Part shown: positions 1 to 55,930 of the stretch, piece after piece
Layout: each line of letters starts with the position of its first letter
How positions within the stretch are numbered: position 1 is the stretch's first letter
Origin: Bacilli bacterium
Lineage (GTDB): Bacteria > Bacillota_I > Bacilli_A > ML615J-28 > CAG-698
Direction: 5' to 3'
NCBI GenBank assembly: GCA_028691515.1
Contig: JAQUZE010000003.1
Span: 64,399-128,398 of the forward strand
DNA length: 64,000 bases
Translations under genes and position numbers: made by a program
The notes under the pieces: generated by a model
Told to the model about the DNA's origin: nothing
Database searches by the model: none
The model's input: the letters and a program-made list of their open reading frames with translations, nothing else

Positions 1-90
1 TAATCCTGCAATTGTAAATATACGATAATTAAAGGATTAAATTCTGCTATTAACAATAATATATTATATTATTGACAATATATATTTTAA

Positions 91-120
91 AAAGGTCTCA
101 ATAGATGAGACCTTTTTTTA
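91..120. terminator. Rho-independent terminator hairpin (GGTCTCA/TGAGACC) flanked by an A-run and a T-run, downstream of aroA
   Basis: Seen in sequence: aaaaaggtctcaatagatgagaccttttttt. Confidence 0.6.
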
Positions 121-122
121 TT

Positions 123-2388: not shown

Positions 2389-2400
2389 TTAAAATCTCCT

Positions 2401-4736: not shown

Positions 4737-5750
4737 TCACTTTCCTAAAAGATCTACTAATTCTTCTGCAGTAACTTGTCTAATATGATATTTATTCATA
4801 TTTTCTAAGAAAACAGCTTCAATTTTGCCATTTTTTGCTTTTTTATCATTTTGAAGATATGTTAAAAGCATATTTTTATCAATATTAGCTATAAGAGTAT
4901 CGACATCTAGCCCCATTCTTATAATTATATTCTTAACTTTATTTTGTAATTCTTTATCCTCAATCATATATATTAAACCAATAGCAATAGATTCACCATG
5001 AAGTAGTTTATCAAGGTGATAAGAGCTCTCTATACCATGTCCTAAAGTATGACCAAAATTTAAAATATGACGAATTCCAAAATCTTTTTCATCTTTTTCA
5101 ACAATTTTTTTCTTTGCAAGAATTGATCTTTCTATAACTTCTAAAATATTTTTTGAATATATTCCTTCTTCAAAAAAATTAAATAATTTTTTATCAAGTA
5201 ATAATCCCATCTTTAAAGCTTCAAACATTCCATTAATATAATGTCTTCTTGGAAGACTATCTAAAACTTCTGGGTCAATTAAAACTAAATCTGGAGCATA
5301 AAAAGATCCGACAACATTCTTTATATTGCTGAAATTAAGGGCATTTTTACTCCCTACTGCACTATCCATCATTGACATTGTAGTTGTAGGGATCATAACT
5401 AACTTACATCCTCGTTTAAATACAGACGCTGTAAATCCTGTTAAATCTCCAATAACTCCACCACCCAAAGCAATTATTGTATCGCTTCTACTAAATTTTT
5501 TATTCACAAGGTAATCTAAAATTTGTGTAAATGTTTCTATAGATTTACTGCTTTCTCCGGCCTTAACTTTATACGTAAAAACTTCAGGAAATTGCCTTAC
5601 AATGTTATTTAATTTAACATTATCAATATTTTCATCATAAATTATCAAAGTCTTCTCTAAGACATTTAAATAATCTTTTAAATGCCCCAAAATTGCTTTT
5701 TCAAAGATGATATTATATTTATTATTTTTTGAATTAATTACTATTTCCAT
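4737..5750 (-). CDS. aroB: 3-dehydroquinate synthase
   Basis: 337 aa. GGGVIGDLTGFTA glycine-rich NAD motif and metal-binding His region (HTLGHGIE). Confidence 0.9.
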   Translation of the reverse strand: MEIVINSKNNKYNIIFEKAILGHLKDYLNVLEKTLIIYDENIDNVKLNNIVRQFPEVFTYKVKAGESSKSIETFTQILDYLVNKKFSRSDTIIALGGGVIGDLTGFTASVFKRGCKLVMIPTTTMSMMDSAVGSKNALNFSNIKNVVGSFYAPDLVLIDPEVLDSLPRRHYINGMFEALKMGLLLDKKLFNFFEEGIYSKNILEVIERSILAKKKIVEKDEKDFGIRHILNFGHTLGHGIESSYHLDKLLHGESIAIGLIYMIEDKELQNKVKNIIIRMGLDVDTLIANIDKNMLLTYLQNDKKAKNGKIEAVFLENMNKYHIRQVTAEELVDLLGK

Positions 5751-5882
5751 GCGTTTTCTCCTTATAGTATAATTATTATACTAATATTTACTTAAATTTG
5801 CAATAAAAGTTAATTTCTAATTATTATTATTTAAGCATTATACTATATATTTATGATATAATTTAAGAAAGGAGATTATTTA

Positions 5883-6164
5883 ATGAAAGATTTAGATATG
5901 TTTAGACAAATAATTGATAATATTGATAAACACATTGTTATTTTATTTAACATGAGAATGGAAACTATCAAAGAATTATCTTTTTATAAACAAAATAATA
6001 ATATTCCAATTAATGATAACCAAAGAGAAATAGAATTAATTGAAAAAAATAAAAATCTTATAAATAAAGATTTTTATAAATATTACGAACAATTATATAA
6101 AGAAATTTTAAAAATTTCCAAAGACTACCAAAAAAACATAATTAATCATAAGGAGAAAATATGA
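5883..6164 (+). CDS. Chorismate mutase, AroQ class (small, all-helical)
   Basis: 93 aa. Pattern MDMFRQIIDNIDKHIVILFNMRMETIKELSFYK typical of AroQ chorismate mutase. Divergent from the aro operon. Confidence 0.6.
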   Translation: MKDLDMFRQIIDNIDKHIVILFNMRMETIKELSFYKQNNNIPINDNQREIELIEKNKNLINKDFYKYYEQLYKEILKISKDYQKNIINHKEKI

Positions 6165-6619
6165 TACTTAATAAAAAAATAGACGATTTTACTCTTCCAA
6201 ATGAACTAGGCGAAGAAATATCTTTAAGTAATTTCTTAGGAAAAAAAGTTGTTATTTATTTTTACCCAAAAGATTTTACACCCGGATGTGAACAACAAGC
6301 TTGTTCATTTCGAAATTTAGATAAAGAATATAAAGAACTTGATACAATCGTTATTGGAATTAGCAAAGATACAGTTGCAAGTCATAAAAAATTTAAAGAA
6401 AAATTTAATTTGCCTTTTATTTTATTAAGCGATCCCGAAAGAAAAATATTAAAAAAATTTAATGTTATTGTTGAAAAGAAAATGTTTGGAAAATCTGTTT
6501 TAGGAACTTCTAGAGATACTTATATTTTAAATGAAAAACATGAACTAGTTAAAATATATAAAAAAGTTGATCCCAAAGACAATGCAAATGAAATATTAGA
6601 ATTTTTAAAAACAATTTAA
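6161..6619 (+). CDS. bcp: Thioredoxin-dependent peroxiredoxin Bcp
   Basis: 152 aa. FYPKDFTPGCEQQACSFRN peroxidatic cysteine motif. Confidence 0.85.
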   Translation: MILNKKIDDFTLPNELGEEISLSNFLGKKVVIYFYPKDFTPGCEQQACSFRNLDKEYKELDTIVIGISKDTVASHKKFKEKFNLPFILLSDPERKILKKFNVIVEKKMFGKSVLGTSRDTYILNEKHELVKIYKKVDPKDNANEILEFLKTI

Positions 6620-6650
6620 AAATCATACCCAAAAGGGTATGATTTTTTAT
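6620..6650. terminator. Bidirectional rho-independent terminator between convergent bcp and the TIR-like gene
   Basis: aatcatacccaaaagggtatgattttttat: 9-bp stem, 4-nt loop, T-run. Confidence 0.6.
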
Positions 6651-7189
6651 TCTTCTTCAGAAACTCCATATAAATTTTCATAAATAGTTAAAGGAAATCT
6701 AAAATTACCTTTTTTCTTTTTTTGAACAAATTTTTTATTCATATCTGGCCAATTTTTTACTGCAAGTTCAAAAACTTTTTCTTCCATTGGAATATGTAGA
6801 GATAAATTTCCTCTCTTTAGCTTTGCAGGAATAAGAGAGAAATCAACTGATCTAATCGGAGTTAAATTTAAGCAAATTGTTGGATGGTCACTATTTCTCA
6901 AATACATAACTTGCCAACTAATAAACTTACGCATTGATTTTGTTTTTTTAGAAATAATAATAACTGCCAGATCTGATTCATCAATCAGTTTATAAATTTC
7001 TTCTTTAATATTGTCATCTGGTTCTTTGTCGATTTTTTTCTTTAAATCATAGCAATTATAAAAAATATAGTTATTACCCTCACTATCTTTAAATTGAGAT
7101 AATTTGTTAAATACCTCTAAATCTTCTGCTCCATCAAAAGCTACAAATATTTTTTTATCCATTATGTTCTCCTTTCTAACTTTGATCAC
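6647..7189 (-). CDS. TIR-like (DUF1863 / ThsB-like) domain protein. The true start is probably the internal Met (MDKKIF...) near 7162.
   Basis: KIFVAFDGAEDLE...IKEEIYKLIDESDLAVIIISKKTKSMRKFISWQVMYL matches the TIR-like fold pattern (beta-A FxxF, acidic helix, S..W). Confidence 0.5.
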   Translation of the reverse strand: MIKVRKENIMDKKIFVAFDGAEDLEVFNKLSQFKDSEGNNYIFYNCYDLKKKIDKEPDDNIKEEIYKLIDESDLAVIIISKKTKSMRKFISWQVMYLRNSDHPTICLNLTPIRSVDFSLIPAKLKRGNLSLHIPMEEKVFELAVKNWPDMNKKFVQKKKKGNFRFPLTIYENLYGVSEEE

Positions 7190-7214
7190 AATTTATTATA
7201 TCATATATGTGAAT

Positions 7215-7904
7215 TTATTTAAAGACGTCACGAAGTTTATATCCCGCTTTAATAATGACTTCCTTTACTAAACAATCCATTGAATCTACTAAAATATAAT
7301 TCGCTAAACAATTTTTAAATAAAGATAATTCCGTACATGCTAATAAATATATACTGTCTTTATCTTCTAATAAATCAATAAATTTATCCAAAAGTGTTAA
7401 AGGATTAATTCCGCTTTTAATTTGATAAATAATTTCTTGTAATAGCTTCTGTTTTTTATAATCTAAATAATTTAAATCAAGATTTTTACTATAAATATTA
7501 TTCAAAAATATATTCGTTTTTATTATTCCTCTTGTACCAAGAATTATAATTTTCTTATTTTTATAATTATTAAATAAACATTTAAGAGCAGTATCAACAA
7601 TGCTTATAAAATTCATACCGGAAAAATCTAAATCATCAACATAATAATGAGCAGTATTACAAGCAATGATAATATTTCTAGCTCCAATCTTCCTAATATC
7701 ATTAATAGTTTTATTAATTTCATTAATAGGTGATTTATCTCCATATAAAATATTATCAGTTCTATCAGGAATATTTGAATTGTTTAGAATAATAATTTTC
7801 ATATGTTCACTATCATTAGTTGCCTCTGTCATCGCAATTATTCTATCAAATATTTCAACTGTAGCTTTAGACCCCATTCCCCCAACTATACCTAAATCAT
7901 ACAT
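7215..7904 (-). CDS. Aspartate/glutamate racemase family protein (aspartate racemase-like)
   Basis: 229 aa. Two catalytic-Cys regions (IIACNTAHYY, LLACTELSL). Confidence 0.75.
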   Translation of the reverse strand: MYDLGIVGGMGSKATVEIFDRIIAMTEATNDSEHMKIIILNNSNIPDRTDNILYGDKSPINEINKTINDIRKIGARNIIIACNTAHYYVDDLDFSGMNFISIVDTALKCLFNNYKNKKIIILGTRGIIKTNIFLNNIYSKNLDLNYLDYKKQKLLQEIIYQIKSGINPLTLLDKFIDLLEDKDSIYLLACTELSLFKNCLANYILVDSMDCLVKEVIIKAGYKLRDVFK

Positions 7905-7914
7905 ATATTAACTC

Positions 7915-9333
7915 CTATAAATTTGTTATTAATAAATCATCAATAGCCTCTAAATACTCATTAATTGAATCTTTTATTTTACCTTTATAACTTTTTACTG
8001 AAAAATTAAATAGCAAAGAGTTCAAAACGGCTTCTTCAACAGCTTCAACAACACCTCTAAATACTGTATCAATATATTCATCTTGAAGCGTATTAATATT
8101 ATTAAAAGCTTCCTTTGAATAATGTCTAATTATATTTGCTGTTGAAAAAGCTAAGACAACATCTCCACTTCCATTTCCCATATAAGAGCCGGTATTACCT
8201 ATTCCAATAATAGCACGTTTACATAATCTTTTTAGCTGTCTATTATCTAGAGGAATATCTGTAGCTATAACTACAGCAATAGATCCCCTATCTTGCACCT
8301 CTTCTTGTAAATCATTAATTATATTCCCCACAAATTTTTTATTAAAAACTAAATCATTACTATTGCCTTTAAAATTAGAATTTACTATAACTCCTATATT
8401 ATAATTAGAATCTTCTATTTTCACTATTCTTGAAGAAGAACCAATTCCACCTTTAAAACCATGACAACACATTCCTGAACCAGCGCCATATGAACCTTGT
8501 AAAAAATAAGATTCTGCATTTTTAATTGCTTTATTAACATCTTCATCATTAAGGAAAATATCTCTTATATTATTAATACTACTATCATTACACTCCATTA
8601 CAATAGGATTTACTGTTCCGGTAGACAAACCAATATCCTCGTTATTTTCAATCATATATTTAATTAAACCATTTGTAACTACTCCAATACTTAAAGTATT
8701 AGTAAATAATATTGGTGTTTCTATTGTTCCAAGTTCTTCAACTTGAATAAAACCAACTGGTTTAGAGAAGCCATTACCAACATAACAACTTGCTAAAAGC
8801 TTATTCTTAAAAACATTATCAGCGTGAGGAATAATTGCAGTAATCCCTGTGTGATGAATCGAATCATGATAAGTTGTGTGGCCTACTTTTACTCCTGGAA
8901 CATCTGTAATTGAATTATTTTTCCCAGTATCTAGTATTCCCACCTTAACAAGCCTATTTATATCTTTAGCATTATTTTTTAAAATAATAAAATCATTTTC
9001 TTCTTTATAAGGATAATTAATTTTTGTAAATTGATTTTTAAAAGAAGAAAAAATTTTTTTATTAATTTTAATTTCTTCAAAAATATATCTTTTGATAATT
9101 AAGTATTTTGAAATCAAATAATAAGCGTATTCTGGTTTATCAACTTTTATCAATGTAATCTCATCATTAATAAATTCTAAAAAGCCATATATATTATTAT
9201 TTTCATAAACTATAATCAATTCCTTTTTGTAAAAGTCACATTTATATTTACATGTGACTTTATCTATAAGATGTGACTTTTTATTTCTATTGAAATATTT
9301 AGTATTAATCATATAATAATTTCCTAAAATCAT
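7915..9333 (-). CDS. S58/DmpA-family (P1) aminopeptidase with a ~130-aa N-terminal domain of unknown function
   Basis: C-terminal 340 aa match DmpA/OAT-like peptidases (VGHTT...GSYGAGSGMCCHGFKGGIGSSSR). Confidence 0.65.
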   Translation of the reverse strand: MILGNYYMINTKYFNRNKKSHLIDKVTCKYKCDFYKKELIIVYENNNIYGFLEFINDEITLIKVDKPEYAYYLISKYLIIKRYIFEEIKINKKIFSSFKNQFTKINYPYKEENDFIILKNNAKDINRLVKVGILDTGKNNSITDVPGVKVGHTTYHDSIHHTGITAIIPHADNVFKNKLLASCYVGNGFSKPVGFIQVEELGTIETPILFTNTLSIGVVTNGLIKYMIENNEDIGLSTGTVNPIVMECNDSSINNIRDIFLNDEDVNKAIKNAESYFLQGSYGAGSGMCCHGFKGGIGSSSRIVKIEDSNYNIGVIVNSNFKGNSNDLVFNKKFVGNIINDLQEEVQDRGSIAVVIATDIPLDNRQLKRLCKRAIIGIGNTGSYMGNGSGDVVLAFSTANIIRHYSKEAFNNINTLQDEYIDTVFRGVVEAVEEAVLNSLLFNFSVKSYKGKIKDSINEYLEAIDDLLITNL

Positions 9334-10414
9334 CTACGAACTCATAAACAGCATTAATATTTGTTGCCCACGAAGTTACAAGCCTAATAACAGATCTATC
9401 GTTATCAAGACTTTTCCATATTTCAAAATCATACAGCTTATTTAAATCTTTAATAATTTTATTATCAAGAATAATAAAATGCATATTTATATTTGATTCA
9501 ATAAAAAATTCAATATTGTCTTTTGATAATTCTTCTTTAAGGACGATACTTGCATCCACTGCATGTTTAGCTAATTTTAAATATAAATTATCCGTAAATA
9601 AACATTCATATTGCATAGCTACTAAATACCCTTTTGCTAACATACCACCATTTAATTTTATAGAATTTCTAAAATTATCTTTAAAAAATGAATTAACTAA
9701 AATTAAGGCTTCTCCAATCATTGCTCCATTTTTAGTACCTCCAATATAAAATGCATCAGAAAATTCAGCAAAATCATTTATAGTTAAATCATTTTCATTA
9801 CATGCTAATGCTTGTGCTAATCTTGCACCATCAATAAATAAATATAAATTGTATTTCTTACATACATCACTAATAGCTTTAATTTCTTTTTTTGTATAAA
9901 TAGTTCCTAATTCTGTAGCATTAGAAATATATACCATTTTAGGAACAACCATGTGTTCATCACAATTAACTAAAATTGCTTGAACAATTTCTTCAGGTAA
10001 TAATTTTCCATTCTTTCCTGGATAATATAAAATTTTATGTCCGTTTGCTTCAATTGCTCCCGATTCATGAACATTAATATGACCACTTTCTACAGAGATA
10101 ACTGCTTCATAAGGTCTTAGAACATGAGAAATTAATATTTTATTCGCACTTGTTCCTCCTGCTAAAAAATGGATATCAACATCTTGATCAATAAATTTTT
10201 TTATTAATAATTTTGCTCTTTCTGAATGTTTATCCAAGCCATATCCAATGTTTTGTTCATTTGCGTTATTTAGCATTAACTCCAAAATTTTAGGATGTGC
10301 TAATTCGCTGTAATCATTTCTAAAACTATATTTCATAAAAGCCTCCATCATTACTCTATTATAACAAACATAAGGCGATTTGTTAATATTGAAATAATAA
10401 ATTGAATCATACAA
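9305..10414 (-). CDS. ltaE: Low-specificity L-threonine aldolase (PLP-dependent, beta-eliminating lyase fold)
   Basis: FRNDYSELAHPKILE...HFLAGGTSANKIL...FIDGARLAQAL. Start probably at the internal Met. Confidence 0.7.
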   Translation of the reverse strand: MYDSIYYFNINKSPYVCYNRVMMEAFMKYSFRNDYSELAHPKILELMLNNANEQNIGYGLDKHSERAKLLIKKFIDQDVDIHFLAGGTSANKILISHVLRPYEAVISVESGHINVHESGAIEANGHKILYYPGKNGKLLPEEIVQAILVNCDEHMVVPKMVYISNATELGTIYTKKEIKAISDVCKKYNLYLFIDGARLAQALACNENDLTINDFAEFSDAFYIGGTKNGAMIGEALILVNSFFKDNFRNSIKLNGGMLAKGYLVAMQYECLFTDNLYLKLAKHAVDASIVLKEELSKDNIEFFIESNINMHFIILDNKIIKDLNKLYDFEIWKSLDNDRSVIRLVTSWATNINAVYEFVDDFRKLLYD

Positions 10415-10446
10415 TGTTCTATGTTAAAATAAAATAGATTATTGAG

Positions 10447-38888: not shown

Positions 38889-39224
38889 TTATTTATTATT
38901 TAATTTATAATAATCTCCAGGAGCTGGTGTCTTAAATATAATAATTTCTAACATCTCTTGGTTTTCATTTCGTACATTCATTTTAGTATTAAACGGAATA
39001 CTTAAGACCTTCATTGGTGAATAAGTTCTTGTTTCTTCATCATTTAATGAAATTGAAAGAGTCCCTTTTAAAACTGTCATATACACATTTGCATTAGATT
39101 GGTGAAGAGGTAACCCCTCATTTTGCGGAAGAATCGCATGCATATAATGTAAATGTTCATTAACAATAACTTTTTCTATAACTTTATCATCAGTTTGTTT
39201 TAATTCAAATATTTTTTCAATCAT
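38889..39224 (-). CDS. Cupin-domain protein
   Basis: 111 aa. Cupin_2-like His motifs (HLHYMHAI...YMTVLKGTL). Confidence 0.55.
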   Translation of the reverse strand: MIEKIFELKQTDDKVIEKVIVNEHLHYMHAILPQNEGLPLHQSNANVYMTVLKGTLSISLNDEETRTYSPMKVLSIPFNTKMNVRNENQEMLEIIIFKTPAPGDYYKLNNK

Positions 39225-39468
39225 TTTTTTCTCCTTATTATTTAAATTTTTTCTTCATATTCAATTAATAATTGTTTTATAAAAAATAATTAAATATCAA
39301 TATATTTATATTAAAACAATTTATATTATGAGTATTAAAGAAAATATATTATATCACTATTTTGATTACAAATGAAATATTGTGCTTACTAATTATTGTA
39401 TGCTATTTTTATAAATCAATAATACCTAAAAATATTATTTAAACATATTAATTCAATTTTTATAACAT

Positions 39469-40371
39469 TTAAAAATTTAACATAATATTAATATCTGCCT
39501 TTTTAGGCTCAATAAAATTTTCAGCATTTTTTAATCTTTCATTCAAATTTGGAATAAACTCTTTATGTTCATCTAAAATATGATTAATTCTATATTTAAT
39601 ATTCACAATTCTATTTTTTTTCACAGAATAACCAACTGGTACAAAAAATAAATAATCTTTACTAACACCAAATTTACAATCTGTTCCAATGATAAAATAA
39701 AATAAATTCTTACAAATATATGTATTTTCTTCGCTATTTTTTTGCTTTAATTTATTTAAATCACTAAGTTTACTTGTTGAACTAACAAATGTAATAAACT
39801 CATCATTTGCAAACTTTTCTCTCATCTCTAGTAACGACAATGGTTTTTTGTTAATATCAACAAATAATCCATCACTTGTTAGATCTAACATAATCCACTT
39901 GTTTAACTTTTCATCATAAATTTCATTCACTACATGATTGTCAAAATCATAAGGTGAAAAAGGTAAAATTGATACTCTTCTTGCATAAATCCCTAAAGCT
40001 AAACAGCATTCCTCAAAAATTTTTGCTTTATTCAAACAATTAATACCTTGATTATCATTATTTAAACTATATTCTAATAATTTCAAAGAATTACATTCAA
40101 TATGATTATCATACCATGAAGAATGTTTTAATTTTGGAGCTAAATAGTGAAGTAATCTTTTGGCTCTTGTAAAACTAGAACCTTTTCCAGCAATTTTTTC
40201 AAATTCATATTTTTCTAATAATTCTTTATACTCAGGACAATCAAAATGATATTTAATGGGAATATTAATTTCATTGTCAAACTTTTGATTATTAAAAAGT
40301 ATTCCCTTATATAATAAAAATCTTTCTTCAATTGATAATTTTTCAGTTTTTGTCATAAAATAATCCTCCAA
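39469..40371 (-). CDS. Transglutaminase-like cysteine-peptidase superfamily protein
   Basis: Cys-His-Asp triad in conserved context: GINCLNKAKIFEECCLALGIYARRVSI ... DNHVVNEIYD ... KWIMLDLT. Confidence 0.55.
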   Translation of the reverse strand: MEDYFMTKTEKLSIEERFLLYKGILFNNQKFDNEINIPIKYHFDCPEYKELLEKYEFEKIAGKGSSFTRAKRLLHYLAPKLKHSSWYDNHIECNSLKLLEYSLNNDNQGINCLNKAKIFEECCLALGIYARRVSILPFSPYDFDNHVVNEIYDEKLNKWIMLDLTSDGLFVDINKKPLSLLEMREKFANDEFITFVSSTSKLSDLNKLKQKNSEENTYICKNLFYFIIGTDCKFGVSKDYLFFVPVGYSVKKNRIVNIKYRINHILDEHKEFIPNLNERLKNAENFIEPKKADINIMLNF

Positions 40372-40502
40372 AATTATTATTAATATATTATATCATATTA
40401 TAAAAACTCTCTTTAAGTATTATTTCAAAAGATAATTTTTACGTTTATAAGCTATAAATAATTAGTGCTATCATCATTTAACTAACATATATTTAAGCAA
40501 AT

Positions 40503-40531
40503 AAACTTTGATGTATACCAAAGTTTTTTTA
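40503..40531. terminator. Hairpin with T-run downstream of the lipoprotein gene
   Basis: aaactttgatgtataccaaagttttttt. Confidence 0.35.
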
Positions 40532-40566
40532 ATTAATAAAAAAATATAAGTCTGTTTTTCATTTTT

Positions 40567-41178
40567 TTAAAAATTTCTATATTTAAGTGTATCTGATGGC
40601 TCTTTTGAAATAAGATAAAAGTAAACTCCACTTATATATGTTCTTACTTCAACCCATGTTGTACCTTTTACTATTGTAGTGCTATCATTATCATTTGTTT
40701 TTATAAAAAATATATCTGCTATATTAAATTCTTGGTTCTCTATATTTATATTAGAAATTTGTAAAGTAACATATAAGAAGCCTTCAGCTTCTTCTATTTT
40801 ATTAAAATCTTCTCTCTTATAATTTATATCATTAATTGTAATAGAATCAAATGTTCTTCCATTATTTTCTTTTACTTTAAATTCTACTAGACAATTTGCT
40901 GTTTCTTCAACAGTTGTTGTGTAATATAACCACAAAGGTTGTGGAGAGTTAACTTTTTCTAATCCAAGATTAATAGGCCCATAAAAAGCAGAATAACCTT
41001 CAAAATAATTTGGAGAACGAGATTCTTCAATTTCTACATCAAGCTCTACATCGCTTTCAGCGTAATAAATTTTAATATCTTGTAATTGTCCATTAACAAT
41101 TCCATCATTATAATTATAGCAACCACTTAAAAAGAAATTGATAAACAAAAATAAAAATAACATTAATACTTTTTTCAT
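40567..41178 (-). CDS. Lipoprotein of unknown function
   Basis: Signal peptide with lipobox LSGC. 203 aa. Confidence 0.5.
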   Translation of the reverse strand: MKKVLMLFLFLFINFFLSGCYNYNDGIVNGQLQDIKIYYAESDVELDVEIEESRSPNYFEGYSAFYGPINLGLEKVNSPQPLWLYYTTTVEETANCLVEFKVKENNGRTFDSITINDINYKREDFNKIEEAEGFLYVTLQISNINIENQEFNIADIFFIKTNDNDSTTIVKGTTWVEVRTYISGVYFYLISKEPSDTLKYRNF

Positions 41179-41193
41179 ATTAAATCCCCCTTA

Positions 41194-41565
41194 CTATACT
41201 GAATGATAAATTAATGGCATTAATATAAGGCCCAAAACTAAACTTGCTATATTTGCAACAAAGGAAATTAAAAATCCTAAGCGTACATTTTTTAATAAAT
41301 AAGATAAAACTATTCCCTCTATTATAAATACCAATATTTCAAAAAATCCTAAATACAATGTATCTTGTTCATAAGAAACCAGTTCTAAACTTAAATTCAT
41401 GCTTACGTTCGTGATACAGTTAGTGATAAACATCACAAGATAGATTTTATAATCTTTTATCTTAAAAAAAACTAACACAGTTAATTCAATCATTAATGTG
41501 ATAATTAAAGCAATTAAAATAGGTTGTGTAATAAATATAAAATAAATGAATTTCATTATTAACAC
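41194..41565 (-). CDS. Small polytopic membrane protein (3-4 TM), unknown function
   Basis: 123 aa hydrophobic ORF 15 nt upstream of the lipoprotein gene. Confidence 0.4.
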   Translation of the reverse strand: MLIMKFIYFIFITQPILIALIITLMIELTVLVFFKIKDYKIYLVMFITNCITNVSMNLSLELVSYEQDTLYLGFFEILVFIIEGIVLSYLLKNVRLGFLISFVANIASLVLGLILMPLIYHSV

Positions 41566-41576
41566 TCCCTTATAGT

Positions 41577-41606
41577 TAAAAACAACTCGAAAGAGTTGTT
41601 TTTTAA
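41577..41606 (-). terminator. Rho-independent terminator downstream of LemA
   Basis: aaaaacaactcgaaagagttgtttttt. Confidence 0.55.
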
Positions 41607-41692
41607 TAAATAGACCTGCCTTTTTTCATCTCAAAAACATAATCTATCAAAACTCTTAGAATACTAAGATAATCTTTAATAAATATTAATAA

Positions 41693-42358
41693 TTAAAAGA
41701 ATTTTGCTCTTGCTTGTTCTTTTGTCTCTCTAGATGCAGTAAAAGGAATTCTTGTTGTTACGCCAGCTCTTGCTGCAACAATCATTTTAGTTGGCCATCT
41801 AAAAATATCTGTGTTCCATTTTAATACTGTATCATTATATACTTCTCTAGCAGCAGTAATTTCTCTTTGTAAATAAGAATTTTGTTGCATAGCATCTGCA
41901 AGTGTTTCATGAGCCTTTAAATCCGGATAAGCTTCAAAAGCTACATTAATACTACGCATTGCTTGATCAATTTCATTTGCAACTTGATTACGATTAGTAT
42001 CATCAGGATGAACTCCTCCACGATAAGCCGCAACAGTTTTCATTACATCTTTGTCTAAATCGATGCTTTTTTCAACAATACCTACAGCATTTTGTAAAAT
42101 TTGAACTCTTTGTTCAAGATAATTATCGATTTGTGATGCATTATGTTGAACACGTTGTTCTAATTGTCTCAAATAATTTCTCGCGCTAATCTTCATAAAT
42201 AAGAAAATAACACCAGGAATGATTCCTAAAACCCATAACATTACCTCAAATAAAGTTGATCCCCAACCTATTTTTACAGGTAATTGTTTTTCAATAACAT
42301 TAATGTCGCGTCCTTCTTTATTTACTGGACCCTTTAATTCATCTAATTCGTTTCCCAT
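41693..42358 (-). CDS. LemA family protein
   Basis: N-terminal TM segment. LemA motifs (YLRQLEQRVQHNASQID...EAYPDLKAHETL...AREVYNDTVLKWNTDIFRWP). Codon and GC usage noticeably richer than neighbouring genes. Confidence 0.75.
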   Translation of the reverse strand: MGNELDELKGPVNKEGRDINVIEKQLPVKIGWGSTLFEVMLWVLGIIPGVIFLFMKISARNYLRQLEQRVQHNASQIDNYLEQRVQILQNAVGIVEKSIDLDKDVMKTVAAYRGGVHPDDTNRNQVANEIDQAMRSINVAFEAYPDLKAHETLADAMQQNSYLQREITAAREVYNDTVLKWNTDIFRWPTKMIVAARAGVTTRIPFTASRETKEQARAKFF

Positions 42359-42386
42359 TTTTTTCTCCTTTTCTATTTATATTATA

Positions 42387-44216
42387 TTATTTCTTTTGTT
42401 TTTTTGCAAGATAAACAATAAATGGTCCTATTTTAACCATATCATCTTTAGTAATCTGTCTATCTTTAAATTCTTCAAAGATGGCTCTGATTTTATCATT
42501 ATAAGATTCTGCTTTTTTATCTTCAACAACATTTATATCAATATCTGTATCCTGTGAAACAGGAATGTACTCAACCCAATGAACGGGAATTGTATGTAAT
42601 TTCCCATCATTACCCATTTTATTAATATAATCAATTCTATTAATCATATCATAACCATATGCAGTTACTTTGACTGTGTCACAATAATCACCGCTTTTAA
42701 CAGTTGATGTTTTTAAAATATTTCTTGTTTTTGAAAGAGGATGTTTAAACTCTCTTTCATTCATCAAGTTAGCTAATTGTTCATGTTCATAAAATGAAAC
42801 ATAACTATTATATTTATCTTTATAAATATACTCATGTGGTTTTTGATGTTGATAAAGTGGAATTGATAAAATCGGCGCAAACCCAAAATAAATATATTTA
42901 AAAAAATTATTATTATAATCCAAAAACTTCTTTTCTGTTTCATCAATATTATAATCTCTAAAATATTCAGGATTAATATTTAAATCTATATTTTTAAGGT
43001 GTTCTGGTAATACAATATTAATCATATTATGTTTTTTAAAATCAAAATTATCTCCAAAACCAATTACTTTATCTTTCATCAACTGTAAAAGTTGTTTCTG
43101 AGCTAATGCAGTAAATAACAATCTAAATTGAACTTCATTGTTTCTATTACTGCCCCCAAATAAAACTTCAAATTCAGTATTACCCATTAATGTATAATTA
43201 TCACCAAATTTTAACCCTTTTTCTGCCTTTTTTTGTAATTTTTTTGTTGTCTTTTTAACATGACGTTCTATTTGTTTTTCTTCCATATGTTCTGCATCTG
43301 AATCTTCTCTAGAAAATATCAAATCTGGAGCTGCTTCATTAGCATAAACAATATATGGAGATTCATAATAATAAGGACATGGTTTAGTTACTTCAGCAGT
43401 TAATGTTTGCGTATGATGCCTTGTAGTTAATTGGCCCTTTGAATTTGTACCCACAGTTGTCCAATGAATAGTAATAGAACCAGTATATGTTTTAGTCCCT
43501 AATTGATGCACTAAATCCCTAGCAATATAAAAAGGATTACCATTAATATCTCCAGATTGAACATACAAAGCTGATCTATTTAAATCTGGTGTATCATCTA
43601 ATTTAAATTTATTTACCATATAATCTAATCTTTTACTATCAAACATTCTATCAAGCTTAATCAAAGGGATAGTCTTTTTAAAAATAGAAGTACTCATTCC
43701 ATATGTAAACAATTTATTTAATGGCTCCATCTGGCTCCACGCTAAATCTAAGGTTTCTTTATATTCTTGATCTAGTTTTCCTTTTTCATCGCTAAGTCTA
43801 AGTAACTTCGGATTTAACTTTTTTAAAATAATAAATAAGAAAACGGGAAATGAAATAGCACTAATTCCTATTAATATAGCCTGAATATAATGAAATCCTT
43901 TGCTTACCCATAAATAAATTGATACTCCAAACAAAATTACAAAGATTACCATTAAAAATATCAAAAAACCTTTTAAAAATTTATTATTATTAATCTTTTT
44001 CTGAACTGAATTTCTTCTTTTATCCAAAGACACTAATTCTTTATTTGCAAGTCTGTTTGCTTCTTTATCTAATTTTGACTTTTTAACCAATTCTTCAAAA
44101 AAATCAACAACATTTTTGTGATGTTCTTTTTTAAAAATTTTATCATATGCAATCAGTGGCTCATAAATAAACTCACCATCATATAAATTTTCAGGCATAA
44201 TATCCCTCTTTTCCAA
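42387..44216 (-). CDS. Large membrane-anchored hypothetical protein (2 TM near the N-terminus). Possible LemA-associated partner.
   Basis: 609 aa, no confidently recognised domain. Immediately upstream of LemA in the same orientation. Confidence 0.45.
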   Translation of the reverse strand: MEKRDIMPENLYDGEFIYEPLIAYDKIFKKEHHKNVVDFFEELVKKSKLDKEANRLANKELVSLDKRRNSVQKKINNNKFLKGFLIFLMVIFVILFGVSIYLWVSKGFHYIQAILIGISAISFPVFLFIILKKLNPKLLRLSDEKGKLDQEYKETLDLAWSQMEPLNKLFTYGMSTSIFKKTIPLIKLDRMFDSKRLDYMVNKFKLDDTPDLNRSALYVQSGDINGNPFYIARDLVHQLGTKTYTGSITIHWTTVGTNSKGQLTTRHHTQTLTAEVTKPCPYYYESPYIVYANEAAPDLIFSREDSDAEHMEEKQIERHVKKTTKKLQKKAEKGLKFGDNYTLMGNTEFEVLFGGSNRNNEVQFRLLFTALAQKQLLQLMKDKVIGFGDNFDFKKHNMINIVLPEHLKNIDLNINPEYFRDYNIDETEKKFLDYNNNFFKYIYFGFAPILSIPLYQHQKPHEYIYKDKYNSYVSFYEHEQLANLMNEREFKHPLSKTRNILKTSTVKSGDYCDTVKVTAYGYDMINRIDYINKMGNDGKLHTIPVHWVEYIPVSQDTDIDINVVEDKKAESYNDKIRAIFEEFKDRQITKDDMVKIGPFIVYLAKKQKK

Positions 44217-44313: not shown

Positions 44314-45013
44314 TTATTTTTTAAATATTATTTGATTTTTACCATTTTGCTTTGCTTTATATAACATACTATCTGCTAAATGAACAAATTCTGTAATTGA
44401 TTCCTTATTAAATTGACTAACTCCACCACTAATTGTAATTTTTAATCCATCAACAAAATTATTTGCTTCAATTGCTTTTCTAATTCGCTCAGATATTTTA
44501 TAAGCAACAGATAATTTAGTATTAGGAAAAATTATCATAAATTCATCGCCACCATATCGACCAACATAATCAGTTTCTCTAATATTTTTTTTCATCAGTA
44601 AAGCAACATCAACAAGAACTTGATCTCCATATATATGACCTTTAAGATCATTTACTTTTATTAAGTGTAAGAATAATCCTAGAAGATAAATTGTAATACC
44701 CAACAAACTTATTATTTATCCATAATTTACATTGTCTATTAAAATTATCAAATGATAATATATATTCGTCTTTATTTTTTACATTTATTTCAAACCAATA
44801 ATAATTAATACATAATTTCCCTGCTGGATTGCGATTAACTATAGCAATATGTTTGTTATAGTCATATTGATAGTTAAAATTTAAATTGAAATCTTTGATT
44901 GGTTTATCAAACATTACAATGTAATCATTTTTATCTATGTAAAGCGGTTCTTTTTTACAAGCTTTTGTTATATATAAGTTTTTTTTCAATATATAATTCA
45001 TATTCTTATTCAC
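44314..45013 (-). pseudogene. GGDEF-domain diguanylate cyclase with a novel ~100-aa N-terminal domain, split by a frameshift into two overlapping ORFs (44648..45013 and 44314..44706)
   Basis: Downstream ORF begins mid-domain (…HLIKVNDLKGHIYGDQVL…RYGGDEFMIIF). Upstream ORF ends in the region expected to carry the TGLxNRR-like motif. The two ORFs overlap by 59 nt in different frames. Confidence 0.55.
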
Positions 45014-52212: not shown

Positions 52213-52438
52213 TAATAACGTTTTTCATTTTATTTATTGTGAAATTATATATTAAAATAATCTTTTGTTTTATTATTTATTCCATTTTTTAATTATTTTG
52301 ACTTTTGTTTTTCCCACCTTTGTTCCTAAATATGTGGAACGGCGATCATTATAATACAAATCGTACTAATGTCGTATTTATTCATTTCCTTACACTTTTT
52401 TGAATTCATTTATAGTATTTATGTGCTGATTCTTTCTT

Positions 52439-54541
52439 TTACTTCTCATTTACATTTACGGTAAAAGCGACACCTGGTGTTTCACCAACAAAAACAACTT
52501 TTCCGTTTTCGGGAAGTATTACTGGATGATTCCCGTGTATTACTGAAAAATAAACGCATATATCGTCTTCATATAAGGCGAAAGAACTTTTTTCTGGTAT
52601 ATTAACAGTTAATGTTTTACCGATATCCTTAGGGTTTACTGTATACCACCGAGCGTAACCGTCATTTTCAACGGTTATTTCATTATTTTCACTTGTAGGT
52701 AAATCAGTCATGGCTTTTTCGCTTATATATACCATATCCTTTATTCTCAAATATTCTGCACCACCAATTTCAAATATTTCGAGAGTCGAAGTATCTCTGC
52801 CAGCAAGACAAGGTATTTGTATATCTTTTACTCCTTTATTTTTGTCAGCAATTTTATAATATGCTGCATAACCTGGTATTTGTTCACTTGTAGTAATTTC
52901 AAAACAAATGCTCCCAGGAATGTAATACTGCTGGGCATAAGGATTATCATTTACAATATAATACTTTTTACCACTTCGCATATCCCAAGCATGTTGCGTA
53001 TCATTATCTACTTCATTAGATTGTATCAATTCATAATCATATGAACTCATTGAAGCCTGTCCTAAATCAGGAATTAATAACTGCCATTTTACCCATATAT
53101 AGATTCTTCCATTACTTTCTTCAACAAAAGTCAGCTTTTTACTGCCATCTTCATTGACAAACCAACCTTCAGATGTATACAGATATATCTCATCAGGTAC
53201 ATGTCCGCGATAAAGCGTAGATATAGTCATTTTGCCTTCACTTATAATAGTTACTTTTTTTACTGAGTCTTCACCTATATAAATCCCAGAATAATCGACT
53301 TTCTCAGCAGGCATTGAAGACAATTCGGGAACTTTTATCTTTACTGGCGCGATGATTTCATTTATATAACCAACTGATAACAATGTCTCAAGTATGAGTT
53401 CTTGCCCCATTACATGTCCAAAAAAACTAGACCCACCCGATAAGACGGCTGCGAAGACAATGTTATGTTCGGGAATCACTATTAGGCTGCTATGATATAG
53501 CTGTGTATCACCACCTTTTATTAATGGTTGAATGTGATACTCGCTATATGGATAGGCATCTACCGAATCCCAGCCTAGTCCATAACCAAAAAGTCCATCT
53601 TGCTGGTTTGGCCCAAACCCATTTTGATATTCCTTTTGCTTTGTTTTATTTTTTGCGTTCTTTGATAGCATGGATTTTGCTACTTTAATTGATGGGTTTG
53701 ACATGTATACTTGTCCGAATTTACATAGATCTTCTGCAGTTGAAAATATACCACCCGAACCGATTACGTTTATTGTATCTACAGGCGTTTCCTGGTTACC
53801 AACATAAGTTCGGACTAGTCGTTCTTTGTCAAAATCACTTTGAGGAGTATATGTATTAGTCATCTTTAGAGGTTCAGTAATGTTTTGCTTTATATAATCT
53901 GTAAAGCTCATTCCACTTATTCGTTCAACAATAATCTCTGCAAGAGTAAATCCGTCATTACAATAAACAGAAAATTCCCCCGGCGCTGCTTTAAGCCCTT
54001 GAGTTTCAAGATTTGATAATAAATTATCATGAGCAAGAGGAGATGGATAATCGAATAAAAAGGCATTTTGAAACGTACTTCCGTAAATTCCAGAGGAATG
54101 GTTCAAAAGCATTCTCACTGTAATCTGCTTATAACGTTCATCGGCCATTTTAAATTCTGGAATATACGTTAACACCGGTTGGTCAAGGTCAACTTTTCCT
54201 TCGTCTGAAAGCATCATTATGGCTGTGGTGGCAAACATTTTGCTTGTCGAACCTATACCGAACAACGAATTATTATCTAAAGTCTGTGTATTCTCTTTAT
54301 TAAAAACGCCAGCGGTACCCGATACAATCATTTTACCTTGACAGACCAAGGCGTATTGAATTCCTGAAACGCCATATTGGCTTACAAGCACGTCAGCTAA
54401 TCTTGCAGCGTTGCCTCTAACAGCGGAATAATTATCTCTTTTCCTTAATAATACAACTGAAAAGATTATAAGGATTAAAAACATTGTTGCTATAATCACA
54501 ACTATTGATTTTAAATGTTTGGAATAAAATTTCATTTTCAT
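52439..54541 (-). CDS. Membrane-anchored serine hydrolase of the beta-lactamase / PBP4*-like (class C-related) family with a ~300-aa C-terminal extension
   Basis: SxxK motif GSTSKMF and YxN motif YCNDGF. N-terminal TM anchor. Gene GC visibly higher than flanking DNA. Confidence 0.65.
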   Translation of the reverse strand: MKMKFYSKHLKSIVVIIATMFLILIIFSVVLLRKRDNYSAVRGNAARLADVLVSQYGVSGIQYALVCQGKMIVSGTAGVFNKENTQTLDNNSLFGIGSTSKMFATTAIMMLSDEGKVDLDQPVLTYIPEFKMADERYKQITVRMLLNHSSGIYGSTFQNAFLFDYPSPLAHDNLLSNLETQGLKAAPGEFSVYCNDGFTLAEIIVERISGMSFTDYIKQNITEPLKMTNTYTPQSDFDKERLVRTYVGNQETPVDTINVIGSGGIFSTAEDLCKFGQVYMSNPSIKVAKSMLSKNAKNKTKQKEYQNGFGPNQQDGLFGYGLGWDSVDAYPYSEYHIQPLIKGGDTQLYHSSLIVIPEHNIVFAAVLSGGSSFFGHVMGQELILETLLSVGYINEIIAPVKIKVPELSSMPAEKVDYSGIYIGEDSVKKVTIISEGKMTISTLYRGHVPDEIYLYTSEGWFVNEDGSKKLTFVEESNGRIYIWVKWQLLIPDLGQASMSSYDYELIQSNEVDNDTQHAWDMRSGKKYYIVNDNPYAQQYYIPGSICFEITTSEQIPGYAAYYKIADKNKGVKDIQIPCLAGRDTSTLEIFEIGGAEYLRIKDMVYISEKAMTDLPTSENNEITVENDGYARWYTVNPKDIGKTLTVNIPEKSSFALYEDDICVYFSVIHGNHPVILPENGKVVFVGETPGVAFTVNVNEK

Positions 54542-54721
54542 ACTCCCTTTTTTTATAACATACTAAAAAACATTTTATTATTTAAACAGCAATTAATGGT
54601 AATTTGCACAATTTATCAATATTAGTATAAGTAATAATGGTGGATTGACAAAATTGATTACAACGCAGAATATTGTTCGGTATAAAATATGCAAGCCACT
54701 TTTGATTTTAGCCGGGGGTAA

Positions 54722-55849
54722 TTATTGATTATATTTACTAGCTATTATTCTAATAGCTGGTCGGGCGCCAATTGCGGCAGTGTAGACGGGGTTAAATGGT
54801 TGAATACTTCCGTAATCGTCTATGTTCATTGACTGAAATTCATAGAAAAGGTATGGACTGCGAAGCCACCAATTTCCGTTTGCGTAGTATTTTGAGTCGA
54901 TTGCCATGTATACACCAATTGCTCTTACAAGATCGGTTGTGAATGAAGTTCTTGCTGAATTTAGAGTAAAACCATAGGTTGATGATATGGCTTCTTGATA
55001 TGATAGTAAATATACTTTATCATTAGTGTTGTTACATGCATTGGGGTTTGAACTACTAATTGTTGTTGATGCACTATTATCTACAACTGTCGTTAAAATG
55101 CTAGTCTTTTCAAGAGTTGAAAAGGATAAATTATAAAATACATTGTTTAACCATTCTCGCATTATAGAATTTTCATAATTATTACTTGAATTGTCGAATA
55201 TTTGTTTATCAATAATATATTCAGATAATAAAGTATAAGTATCATCTACTTCTTCTAATACTCTCCATTTAATTGGTTCCACTTTAAAGTAGTAGGTTGT
55301 GCCATATTTAATTGTCTCACCATTCATAAATTGATATATGTTCGAATAAGGAGTTGCTTTCGCTTTCATATATTCACAACCTTCATATTCATAGTAACCT
55401 TTGGTATTTGTTGAGGTAAGTGAATTAAGTGAAGAAATTAAGTTACTATCAGCAACAACTGTTTGTGGGAAAGAACCAAAGTACACATACTTTTTAGACG
55501 TCAATTTAGTACTTAAATTAAGGGTTATTATTTTTGTAAATCCCTCATAATTAATTGTAATAATATGCTCTCCTACGGTTGATAACAGTGCTTGATCTTC
55601 GCTAGATAACATTGCTTCAGTAATAGGTATTAATCGAAACTTGCCATCAGAATAAGTAACTTTAATATTTATGCTTGACAATTCAAAAGTATCAATATCA
55701 TAGCTTTCTGCTAGTGTCGCTGCATCTACTTCAATTGAAGTAATCGTCGCTTGTGGTTCGAATAATCCCCACCCCGACAAAATAGAAATTGAAACAATAA
55801 AAATGATTAAAGTTCCAATTTTTTTAAGACTAATATTCATAATTACCAC
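54722..55849 (-). CDS. Secreted DUF6273-type protein (conserved ...WWLRSP... C-terminal domain)
   Basis: Signal/TM anchor. Motifs EPIKWRVL, VYLLSYQEA, GNWWLRSP, GARPAIRI. Confidence 0.5.
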   Translation of the reverse strand: MVIMNISLKKIGTLIIFIVSISILSGWGLFEPQATITSIEVDAATLAESYDIDTFELSSINIKVTYSDGKFRLIPITEAMLSSEDQALLSTVGEHIITINYEGFTKIITLNLSTKLTSKKYVYFGSFPQTVVADSNLISSLNSLTSTNTKGYYEYEGCEYMKAKATPYSNIYQFMNGETIKYGTTYYFKVEPIKWRVLEEVDDTYTLLSEYIIDKQIFDNSSNNYENSIMREWLNNVFYNLSFSTLEKTSILTTVVDNSASTTISSSNPNACNNTNDKVYLLSYQEAISSTYGFTLNSARTSFTTDLVRAIGVYMAIDSKYYANGNWWLRSPYLFYEFQSMNIDDYGSIQPFNPVYTAAIGARPAIRIIASKYNQ

Positions 55850-55930
55850 CTCTATTTAATTTCTAGTTAATTACAACAAATATGCCAAATAATGTCAATT
55901 ATTTCTGTTACTTTTTTCGATTAAAAATGC

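What the first reader, a model, noticed from the sequence alone, without database searches (positions are those of the whole stretch)
6647..7189. Orphan ThsB-like TIR (DUF1863-type) protein embedded among housekeeping genes
The protein follows the TIR-like pattern of Thoeris ThsB: FVAFDGAED, an acidic helix, IKEEIYKLIDESDLAVIIISKKT and the S..W motif. No ThsA (SIR2 or macro-SLOG), STING or other effector gene is adjacent. It lies between bcp and a racemase, and has host-like base composition. It could be a stand-alone NADase or signal generator, or a partner for a distant effector.
Basis: partly seen in the sequence, partly recalled or inferred. Interest (0 to 1): 0.5.

Follow-up and report, generated by a model that had tools for sequence, protein, structure and literature searches.

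The report
Orphan Thoeris-type TIR lacking catalytic glutamate

Summary

The interpretation as a NADase or signal generator is not supported.
- The catalytic Glu (EcThsB2 E89) is Gln84 here. It is Gln in 56/56 close relatives, whereas Thoeris-linked relatives carry KFxKWExE.
- The active-site Tyr8 is Phe6.
- No ThsA-macro, SIR2, SLOG or second TIR gene lies in the 64-kb window or in 27 related loci.
- The gene is syntenic across Acholeplasma-like Bacilli MAGs. It diverges at the same rate as its housekeeping neighbours (46-47% versus 38-61% identity), with dN/dS 0.10.
- It has its own conserved extended -10 promoter and a terminator.

Best reading: a domesticated, non-NADase ThsB derivative that still binds a ligand or a partner protein. 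Its actual function is unknown.

The parts
6647..7162 (-). CDS of the ThsB-like TIR protein, 171 aa (MDKKIFVAFDG...SEEE, stop TAA at 6647-6649). Key residues: F6 (equivalent to EcThsB2 Y8), D10, D49, K53, R78, W83, Q84 (codon CAA; equivalent to catalytic E89), N99, R104, D107, K116, W138 and Y161 (tail; equivalent to EcThsB2 Y164).
7163..7189 (-). 5' leader that the longest-ORF reading (GTG at 7189) wrongly counts as coding. It contains the ribosome-binding site AGGAG (7173..7169), 6 nt before the ATG.
   Evidence: homologue lengths and N-termini; gene calls
7195..7223 (-). Promoter-like site: -35 TTTAAA (7223..7218), 17-nt spacer, extended -10 TG-A-TATAAT (7203..7195). The TGTGATATAAT / TATGATATAAT element recurs about 25-35 nt upstream of the ATG in relatives at 84% and 46% protein identity.
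   Evidence: Inference only: consensus promoter matches in this AT-rich region are no more frequent than in shuffles. The argument rests on conservation across lineages.
6618..6647 (.). 13-bp-stem hairpin (AAAAATCATACCC-loop-GGGTATGATTTTT) with T-runs on both strands. It is a bidirectional intrinsic terminator shared by the convergent bcp and ThsB-like genes. It is conserved in L031.
6161..6619 (+). Flanking gene bcp (AhpC-TSA/Redoxin peroxiredoxin), convergent with the ThsB-like gene. It is context only and is absent at this position in the 46%-identity relatives.
7215..7904 (-). Flanking gene Asp/Glu racemase, upstream on the same strand. It is the last gene of a Beta_elim_lyase - Peptidase_S58 - racemase cluster. 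It is context only: in relatives an ArsR/P-type ATPase pair separates it from the ThsB-like gene.

Best explanation
[quoted passage not shown] It has left the Thoeris system and become a resident, vertically inherited gene of a lineage of small-genome, uncultured Acholeplasma-like Bacilli. Shown: family and fold membership; replacement of the catalytic Glu by an invariant Gln (and of the active-site Tyr by Phe in this subclade); retention of the other pocket residues (D10, N99, R104, D107, tail Y161); gain of a clade-specific Arg78; absence of any ThsA-type effector within 64 kb; conserved synteny; strong purifying selection; and its own promoter-like site and terminator. Inferred: without the Glu it cannot carry out the Glu-dependent cleavage or base exchange of NAD+ that makes His-ADPR or cADPR signals. 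It therefore most likely works as a non-catalytic module that still binds a nicotinamide- or ADP-ribose-type nucleotide, or a protein partner, in the preserved pocket or surface. Its output would then be sequestration, sensing or protein-protein interaction in normal cell physiology, not abortive-infection signalling.
For: Family and fold:
- PF08937 scores above its gathering cut-off and PADLOC ThsB1 gives E 1.8e-32 over the full length.
- phmmer to 8V6T EcThsB2 gives E 8e-7 over residues 4-164.

Active site:
- The EcThsB2 active-site residues are Y8 and E89 (PMC11204291, Fig. 4 legend). They align with F6 and Q84.
- Q84 occurs in 56/56 close relatives and R78 in 54/56. More distant relatives have E in 74/94.
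- The profile-profile alignment has probability 100% and E 1.5e-47, pairing consensus 'RKFxkWQvE' with 'kFvxWEiE'.
- Engineered E->Q changes abolish TIR function: S. aureus ThsB2 E81Q (PMC12578639) and TLR4 E750Q.

No effector:
- The closest E-type relatives sit next to ThsA_Macro or macro-domain genes in mobile or defence contexts.
- A ThsA-macro HMM finds nothing in the six-frame translation of the window or of 27 related loci; the best E is 0.21.
- PADLOC and Pfam scans of 56 window ORFs find no ThsA, SIR2, SLOG, Macro or TIR.

Domestication:
- The gene sits at the same locus, beside CM_2 and the shikimate operon, in genomes at 84% and 46% protein identity.
- The sister clade (34-38% identity) always lies in IspDF-NAPRTase-Gmk-[x]-PduL. 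In one genome its start overlaps the gmk stop.
- Its divergence is 46-47% identity, against 38-61% for 10 neighbouring housekeeping genes.
- dN/dS is 0.10, equal to bcp, DAHP synthase and MgtE.
- Composition matches the host, and the extended -10 element is conserved.
Against: - No biochemical test was possible. A Gln could in principle support different chemistry, or another acidic residue (D10, D107) could take over.
- Most of the clade, though not this protein, keeps a Glu two residues after the Gln (WQxE).
- The model coordinates could not be inspected, so the placement of Q84 rests on sequence and profile alignment plus overall superposition scores.
- The rest of the genome could not be searched for a distant ThsA or a catalytic TIR partner.
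- The family was found in only 8 of about 185,000 species genomes, using a strict peptide pattern. It is therefore lineage-restricted rather than a universal core gene.
- The proposed binding or adaptor role is inference only.
Confidence: 0.55

Rival explanations
1. It is still an enzyme, but with changed chemistry or substrate. For example, it could be a nucleoside or nucleotide N-glycosidase or transferase acting in nucleotide or NAD salvage, using another residue as nucleophile or base.
For: - ThsB subfamily 9 has an active site resembling nucleoside 2'-deoxyribosyltransferases and DNPH1 (PMC11204291).
- The pocket residues D10, N99, R104 and D107 stay invariant and an Arg78 is gained.
- The sister clade is always next to, and sometimes translationally coupled with, guanylate kinase and lies near NAPRTase.
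- Purifying selection is at housekeeping level.
Against: - In NDT, DNPH1 and TIR enzymes the equivalent Glu is the essential nucleophile or base, and E->Q variants serve as dead or substrate-trapping forms. PDB 8PQQ, an NDT E88Q mutant, appears among the Foldseek hits.
- There is no Pfam or NCBIfam hit to any NDT-type family.
- The window protein is not linked to gmk or NAPRTase.
- Gene-order conservation in reduced genomes need not reflect function.
Confidence: 0.2
2. One reading: it is a working Thoeris ThsB, either a stand-alone NADase or a signal generator, whose ThsA-type effector is encoded elsewhere in the genome.
For: - There is strong full-length similarity to ThsB models and to EcThsB2.
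- The autoinhibitory C-terminal tail and pocket residues are retained.
- The rest of the genome was not searchable.
Against: - The catalytic Glu is Gln in every clade member, and E->Q abolishes ThsB and TIR activity experimentally.
- No effector lies within 64 kb or in any of 27 related loci, whereas E-type relatives have the macro-domain ThsA immediately adjacent, often overlapping.
- The context is housekeeping rather than a defence island or mobile element, and the gene is inherited vertically at the same rate as its neighbours.
- There are no phage homologues.
Confidence: 0.1
3. It is a non-catalytic sensor TIR that recruits or activates a separate catalytic TIR protein encoded elsewhere, as ThsB1 does for ThsB2 in staphylococcal Thoeris.
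For: - In S. aureus Thoeris the putative catalytic residues of ThsB1 are dispensable. It acts with ThsB2, whose E81 is required (PMC12578639).
- Q at the catalytic position recurs in 14/94 more distant ThsB relatives, so non-catalytic ThsB variants may be a regular feature.
Against: - No second TIR gene occurs in the window or in any related locus.
- The context and evolutionary rate are those of housekeeping genes.
- The two distant Q-type relatives examined lie on contigs too short to be informative.
Confidence: 0.1
4. It is a decaying relic of a lost Thoeris system with no function.
For: It has lost the catalytic Glu and lacks a ThsA. A genuinely degraded relative exists on a Lactococcus plasmid, with a stop codon at the Trp preceding the catalytic Glu.
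Against: - The ORF is intact in at least 57 sequence clusters.
- dN/dS is 0.10.
- Twelve residues are invariant across members down to 33% identity.
- Synteny, promoter, RBS and terminator are all conserved.
- The predicted fold is confident.
Confidence: 0.03

Closest known systems
EcThsB2 (E. coli type II Thoeris ThsB, PDB 8V6T; 'ThsB subfamily 9' of Shi et al., Sci Adv 2024, PMC11204291) and the His-ADPR-producing ThsB of Bacillus amyloliquefaciens type II Thoeris
   Different: The catalytic E89 is Gln84. The active-site Y8 is Phe6 in this subclade (Tyr in the sister clade). There is a clade-specific SMRKF motif with Arg78. No TM-macro ThsA is adjacent. The location is chromosomal and housekeeping, not a defence island or plasmid. 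Inheritance is vertical.
Staphylococcal Thoeris ThsB1 (a TIR protein whose catalytic residues are dispensable; PMC12578639)
   Same: It is a precedent for a bacterial Thoeris TIR protein whose role does not depend on catalysis.
   Different: ThsB1 is encoded in the Thoeris operon with a catalytic ThsB2 and a ThsA. It is larger and belongs to another ThsB subfamily. Here no partner is nearby.
Nucleoside 2'-deoxyribosyltransferases, DNPH1 and MilB (N-glycosidase / transferase Rossmann-like fold)
   Different: There is no sequence-profile match. These are much weaker structural matches than ThsB, and the Glu nucleophile that defines their chemistry is absent here.
3HYN (EUBREC_0645, 'putative signal transduction protein', an uncharacterised structural-genomics TIR-like protein)
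   Different: Only 16% identity. It is not detectably the same sequence family, and its active-site state was not examined here.

Membership tests
Pfam PF08937 ThsB_TIR (DUF1863 / MTH538 TIR-like) | Profile score above the curated gathering threshold | tested here: met
   35.1 bits against a cut-off of 21.2, E 1.8e-8, residues 6-98
Pfam PF13676 TIR_2 | Profile score above the gathering threshold | tested here: not met
   18.2 bits against a cut-off of 28
ThsB subfamily 9 (EcThsB2-like, type II Thoeris) | TIR-like fold with a C-terminal tail of about 20 residues packing back on the domain | tested here: met
ThsB subfamily 9 (EcThsB2-like, type II Thoeris) | Active-site tyrosine (EcThsB2 Y8) hydrogen-bonded to the catalytic Glu | tested here: not met
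   Phe6 in the window protein and its subclade (10 of 55 close relatives). The sister clade has Tyr.
Catalytic TIR domains (NADase / cyclase / base-exchange) | Conserved catalytic glutamate on helix alphaC (EcThsB2 E89; BcThsB E85, cited from my own knowledge) | tested here: not met
   Gln84 (codon CAA). Q in 56/56 close relatives, E in 74/94 distant relatives. Three alignments agree.
Catalytic TIR domains (NADase / cyclase / base-exchange) | NAD+ cleavage or signal production | not testable with these tools
   This needs an enzyme assay.
Thoeris defence system (any type) | ThsB gene adjacent to, or in an operon with, a ThsA effector (SIR2-SLOG, TM-macro or another described effector) | tested here: not met
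   No ThsA hit in the PADLOC scan of 56 window ORFs. A ThsA-macro HMM finds nothing in the six-frame window or in 27 related loci. Pfam of neighbours and 40 further ORFs shows only housekeeping families.
Thoeris defence system (any type) | Location in defence islands or mobile elements, with patchy horizontal distribution | tested here: not met
   Synteny is conserved with the shikimate/chorismate mutase genes. Divergence equals that of the neighbours, dN/dS is 0.10 and composition matches the host. There are no phage hits.
Thoeris defence system (any type) | Effector elsewhere in the same genome; protection against phage | not testable with these tools
   The whole genome (GCA_028681715.1) could not be scanned, and no experiment was possible.
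Nucleoside 2'-deoxyribosyltransferase / DNPH1 family | Sequence-profile match and a Glu nucleophile | tested here: not met

The most novel reading that the evidence does not exclude
A bacterial immune TIR (type II Thoeris ThsB) has been domesticated into a chromosomal, vertically inherited pseudoenzyme in a lineage of reduced-genome Bacilli. It keeps the nucleotide pocket but has the catalytic Glu fixed as Gln and a new Arg. It now serves as a receptor or buffer for NAD-derived or related nucleotides, or as a protein adaptor, in normal physiology. This would be a prokaryotic parallel to the non-enzymatic adaptor role ascribed to animal TIR domains. The recurrence of Gln at this position in about 15% of more distant ThsB relatives would make non-catalytic ThsB proteins a regular, overlooked class.
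Probability: 0.35. Interest if true: 0.7.

Novelty: new variant of a known kind. Interest (0 to 1): 0.45.

Why it matters
Systematic surveys of bacterial TIR signalling explicitly discard stand-alone TIR genes (bioRxiv 10.64898/2025.12.03.692087), so such proteins remain uncharacterised. This clade is a clean natural experiment. A Thoeris sensor/synthase has lost its effector and its catalytic carboxylate, yet it is kept under selection as strong as that on neighbouring biosynthetic genes. If it is a ligand-binding or adaptor pseudoenzyme, it would show how immune TIR domains are re-used for non-immune roles in bacteria. A Q84E revertant would give a direct test of what the ancestral pocket binds. 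There is also a practical point. Defence-system finders score this protein as ThsB at E 1e-32, so counting such orphans as partial Thoeris systems would overstate defence content in Acholeplasma-like and other uncultured Bacilli genomes.

Tried and rejected
- NCBIfam gave no hit.
- tblastn against 50,697 phage genomes gave no match, so this is not a phage-borne decoy.
- Rfam and tRNA scans of the window found nothing, so no RNA element is associated with the gene.
- The idea that the adjacent racemase / peptidase S58 / aldolase-like genes are functional partners was rejected. In the 46%-identity relatives an ArsR/P-type ATPase pair separates them, and the ThsB-like gene has its own promoter-like element.
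- bcp as a partner was rejected, because it is absent at this position in those relatives.
- A frameshift or sequencing error as the source of Gln84 was rejected. The identical protein is indexed in 67 blocks of the public contig collection, and Q is invariant across the clade.
- The GTG-7189 start was rejected in favour of ATG-7162.
- Two distant Q-type relatives (P0065, P0110) were looked up to see whether Q-type proteins can sit beside a ThsA. The contigs (0.8-1.4 kb) were too short to decide.
- The PADLOC hits of other window ORFs (mad3, mad8, AriA and others) were not resolved per ORF. They are probably generic ATPase similarity from the ABC transporters seen in Pfam.

Full report
**1. 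The observation**

The window is uniformly AT-rich (GC 0.27) and its genes lie almost entirely on the minus strand. An intact ORF occupies 6647..7189 (-). The first in-frame ATG (7162) is preceded by AGGAG at a 6-nt spacing. All homologues are 169-172 aa and begin M-x-K-K-I-F/Y-V. Gene callers on six public contigs that carry the identical protein aa. The gene is therefore 6647..7162 (-).

Pfam places residues 6-98 in PF08937 (ThsB_TIR), at 35.1 bits against a cut-off of 21.2. PF13676 is sub-threshold. The PADLOC ThsB1 model PDLC00429 matches end to end at E 1.8e-32.

The flanking genes are bcp (convergent, sharing a 13-bp-stem bidirectional terminator at 6618-6647) and an Asp/Glu racemase. 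Composition is host-like: GC 0.258 and GC3 0.157, against 0.271 +/- 0.033 and 0.137 +/- 0.022 for 34 other ORFs.

**2. Which ThsB it resembles**

The only PDB sequence hit is 8V6T (E 8e-7, residues 4-164 against 9-170). This is EcThsB2 of the E. coli type II (TM-macro ThsA) Thoeris system (PMC11204291).

This is a 'subfamily 9' ThsB-type fold and includes the C-terminal tail. Tail residue Y161 aligns with EcThsB2 Y164, which is one of the two tail tyrosines mutated in that paper.

**3. The active site**

The paper names Y8 and E89 as the EcThsB2 active-site residues. PDB chain numbering is native + 3, which I verified through the tail tyrosines Y159 and Y164. In the phmmer alignment Y8 pairs with F6 and E89 pairs with Q84.

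I aligned the hits of at least 140 aa, from the 5.8-billion and 1.84-billion-sequence searches, to the family profile.
- In the tight family (at least 150 bits) position 84 is Q in 56/56 and position 78 is R in 54/56.
- In more distant relatives position 84 is E in 74/94 and Q in 14/94.
- N99, R104, D107 and the tail Tyr are kept in both groups.

A profile-profile comparison of the Q family with 21 E-type ThsBs gives probability 100% and E 1.5e-47 over 167 columns. It pairs consensus 'RKFxkWQvE' with 'kFvxWEiE'. Plasmid-borne relatives read KFVKWEMEVA, KFVKWEIETA and RFVRWELELA. The window protein reads KFISWQVMYL.

The codon is CAA, one transversion from GAA. The identical protein is indexed in 67 blocks of the public contig collection, so this is not a sequencing error.

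Most clade members keep a Glu at +2 (WQxE). The window protein has Met there, so it has no acidic residue on this helix.

Engineered E->Q substitutions abolish function in S. aureus ThsB2 (E81Q; PMC12578639) and in the TLR4 TIR (E750Q; bioRxiv 10.64898/2026.04.20.719644).

**4. Absence of an effector**

The closest E-type representative (P0060) overlaps a PF20016 ThsA_Macro gene. Of nine plasmid relatives (22-30% identity):
- five sit next to an annotated macro-domain protein, amid integrases, TA and RM genes;
- two lie in a multi-TIR/DUF4231 island;
- one is a pseudogene;
- one is unannotated.

I built an HMM from four of these ThsA-macro proteins. It finds nothing in the six-frame translation of the window or of 27 related loci; the best E is 0.21. 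A PADLOC scan of 56 window ORFs of at least 100 aa lists no ThsA.

Pfam annotation of the +/-10 kb neighbourhood and of 40 further ORFs shows only housekeeping families. These include shikimate and threonine biosynthesis, arginase and decarboxylase, ferritin, MgtE, phosphate transport, ABC transporters and thiolase. There is no SIR2, SLOG, Macro, STING or second TIR.

**5. Evolutionary behaviour**

The family is small. There are 53 clusters at 90% identity. Only 7 representatives at 50% identity fall below E 1e-30 among 1.84 billion. Only 8 species genomes of about 185,000 carry it, and all are MAGs labelled Acholeplasma sp., Bacilli or Bacillota, apart from one labelled Bacteroidales. NCBI already names the protein 'TIR domain-containing protein [Bacilli bacterium]'.

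The context of the window protein is conserved across divergence:
- Relatives at 84% identity have the same context.
- Relatives at 46-47% identity (Acholeplasma sp./Acholeplasmataceae MAGs) carry the gene at the same locus, next to the chorismate mutase gene and the shikimate operon. There the racemase is separated from it by an inserted ArsR/P-type ATPase pair, and bcp is absent.
- The ThsB-like protein diverges as much as its ten housekeeping neighbours do: 46-47% against 38-61% identity.
- Against the 84% relative, dN/dS (Nei-Gojobori) is 0.10. This equals bcp, DAHP synthase and MgtE, and is lower than the racemase (0.17) and chorismate mutase (0.39).

A sister clade at 34-38% identity to the window protein (its members 42-79% identical to one another) always lies in IspD/F - (exo/endo-phosphatase) - NAPRTase - guanylate kinase - [GNAT] - ThsB-like - ... 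- PduL. In one genome the start codon overlaps the gmk stop.

An extended -10 element (TGTGATATAAT or TATGATATAAT) lies about 25-35 nt upstream of the ATG in the window and in the relatives at 84% and 46% identity. Together with the terminator, this suggests a monocistronic unit.

This is the signature of a resident, selected gene. It is not that of a mobile defence module or a decaying relic.

**6. Mechanism**

Shown:
- a ThsB-type fold with the tail;
- loss of the catalytic Glu, and in this subclade of the Tyr;
- retention of the other conserved pocket positions, plus a new Arg78;
- no effector in reach;
- housekeeping-like inheritance.

Inferred: the protein cannot perform the Glu-dependent NAD+ glycosidic cleavage or base exchange that generates Thoeris signals. 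It most likely acts as a non-catalytic binder of a nucleotide, or as a protein adaptor (confidence about 0.55).

Rivals:
- an enzyme with altered chemistry linked to nucleotide salvage (0.2). The gmk/NAPRTase linkage of the sister clade and the NDT-like active-site ancestry make this the serious alternative;
- a working Thoeris ThsB with a distant ThsA (0.1);
- a non-catalytic sensor for a distant catalytic TIR, by analogy with staphylococcal ThsB1 (0.1);
- a relic (0.03).

**7. Novelty and verdict**

That the protein is a TIR/ThsB-like protein is already in public annotation. I found three features undescribed in the searchable literature: the invariant natural E->Q change, the orphan status, and the vertical, housekeeping-rate inheritance in two conserved neighbourhoods. 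A recent systematic TIR survey explicitly sets aside stand-alone TIRs.

I rate it a new variant of a known kind, of moderate interest (0.45). The NADase or signal-generator interpretation is not supported.

Noticed in passing
Distant relatives P0065, P0069, P0076, P0085, P0093, P0095, P0110, P0112, P0126, P0156, P0162, P0179, P0190, P0193; loci L033, L041, L042: Gln at the catalytic-Glu position recurs in 14 of 94 more distant ThsB-like representatives outside the Acholeplasma-like clade, including high-GC organisms. Natural E->Q ThsB variants therefore seem to have arisen repeatedly. The two I looked up show no ThsA next to them, but the contigs are only 0.8-1.4 kb.
   Followed up: partly
L011, L025, L026, L027, L032 (sister clade loci), around locus positions 5000-11100: The sister clade of the Q-type protein is always embedded in IspD/IspF - NAPRTase - guanylate kinase - (GNAT) - ThsB-like - PduL (PTAC). 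In L027 the ThsB-like ATG overlaps the gmk stop. This could be a functional link to nucleotide/NAD salvage, or merely conserved gene order in reduced genomes.
   Followed up: partly
L035 (Lactococcus sp. plasmid pLLUC310B, NZ_PP589884.1), about locus 2800-3470: A degraded type II Thoeris lies between the hsdS and hsdR genes of a type I RM system. The ThsB reading frame has a stop codon exactly at the Trp preceding the catalytic Glu (KFVK*EIELA). It is fused in frame to what looks like the N-terminal part of a ThsA. The record does not annotate it.
   Followed up: no
L037 and L039 (Neorhizobium and Agrobacterium plasmids), locus 1-3500: E-type relatives here sit in a conserved island of three TIR-domain genes plus DUF4231, a 7-cyano-7-deazaguanine synthase (QueC-like) and a 'DNA lyase'. 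There is no macro-domain ThsA. This may be a different TIR-based system.
   Followed up: no
window 44314..45013 (-): Two overlapping ORFs (130 aa and 121 aa). The downstream one matches only the C-terminal two-thirds of a GGDEF diguanylate cyclase domain (profile positions 44-161 of 161). This looks like a frameshifted or split GGDEF gene.
   Followed up: no
window about 52400..55900 (-): There is a local GC rise (0.35-0.36 against a window mean of 0.27). It covers a 700-aa beta-lactamase-family protein and a 375-aa DUF6273 protein. This may be a more recently acquired segment.
   Followed up: no
window 38889..44216 (-): A run of ORFs has no Pfam match at E<=1e-5 (111, 203, 123 and 609 aa). 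They are interspersed with a transglutaminase-like protein and a LemA-family protein. These are uncharacterised genes in an otherwise well-annotated housekeeping window.
   Followed up: no
window-wide (PADLOC scan of 56 ORFs): Several window ORFs hit PADLOC models: mad3 (3 ORFs, best E 2e-37), mad8, AriA, an ATPase-Toprim model and others. Given the three ABC-transporter ATPase ORFs seen with Pfam, these are probably generic ATPase similarity. I did not resolve which ORFs hit which model.
   Followed up: no
L001-L006, locus 17135-17281 and 17506-17652 (just beyond the left end of the window): Two adjacent 48-aa ORFs with no Pfam match are called consistently on all six contigs, between the EPSP synthase and a HAD hydrolase gene. 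A TerB_N/TerB_C protein lies a few kb further on.
   Followed up: no
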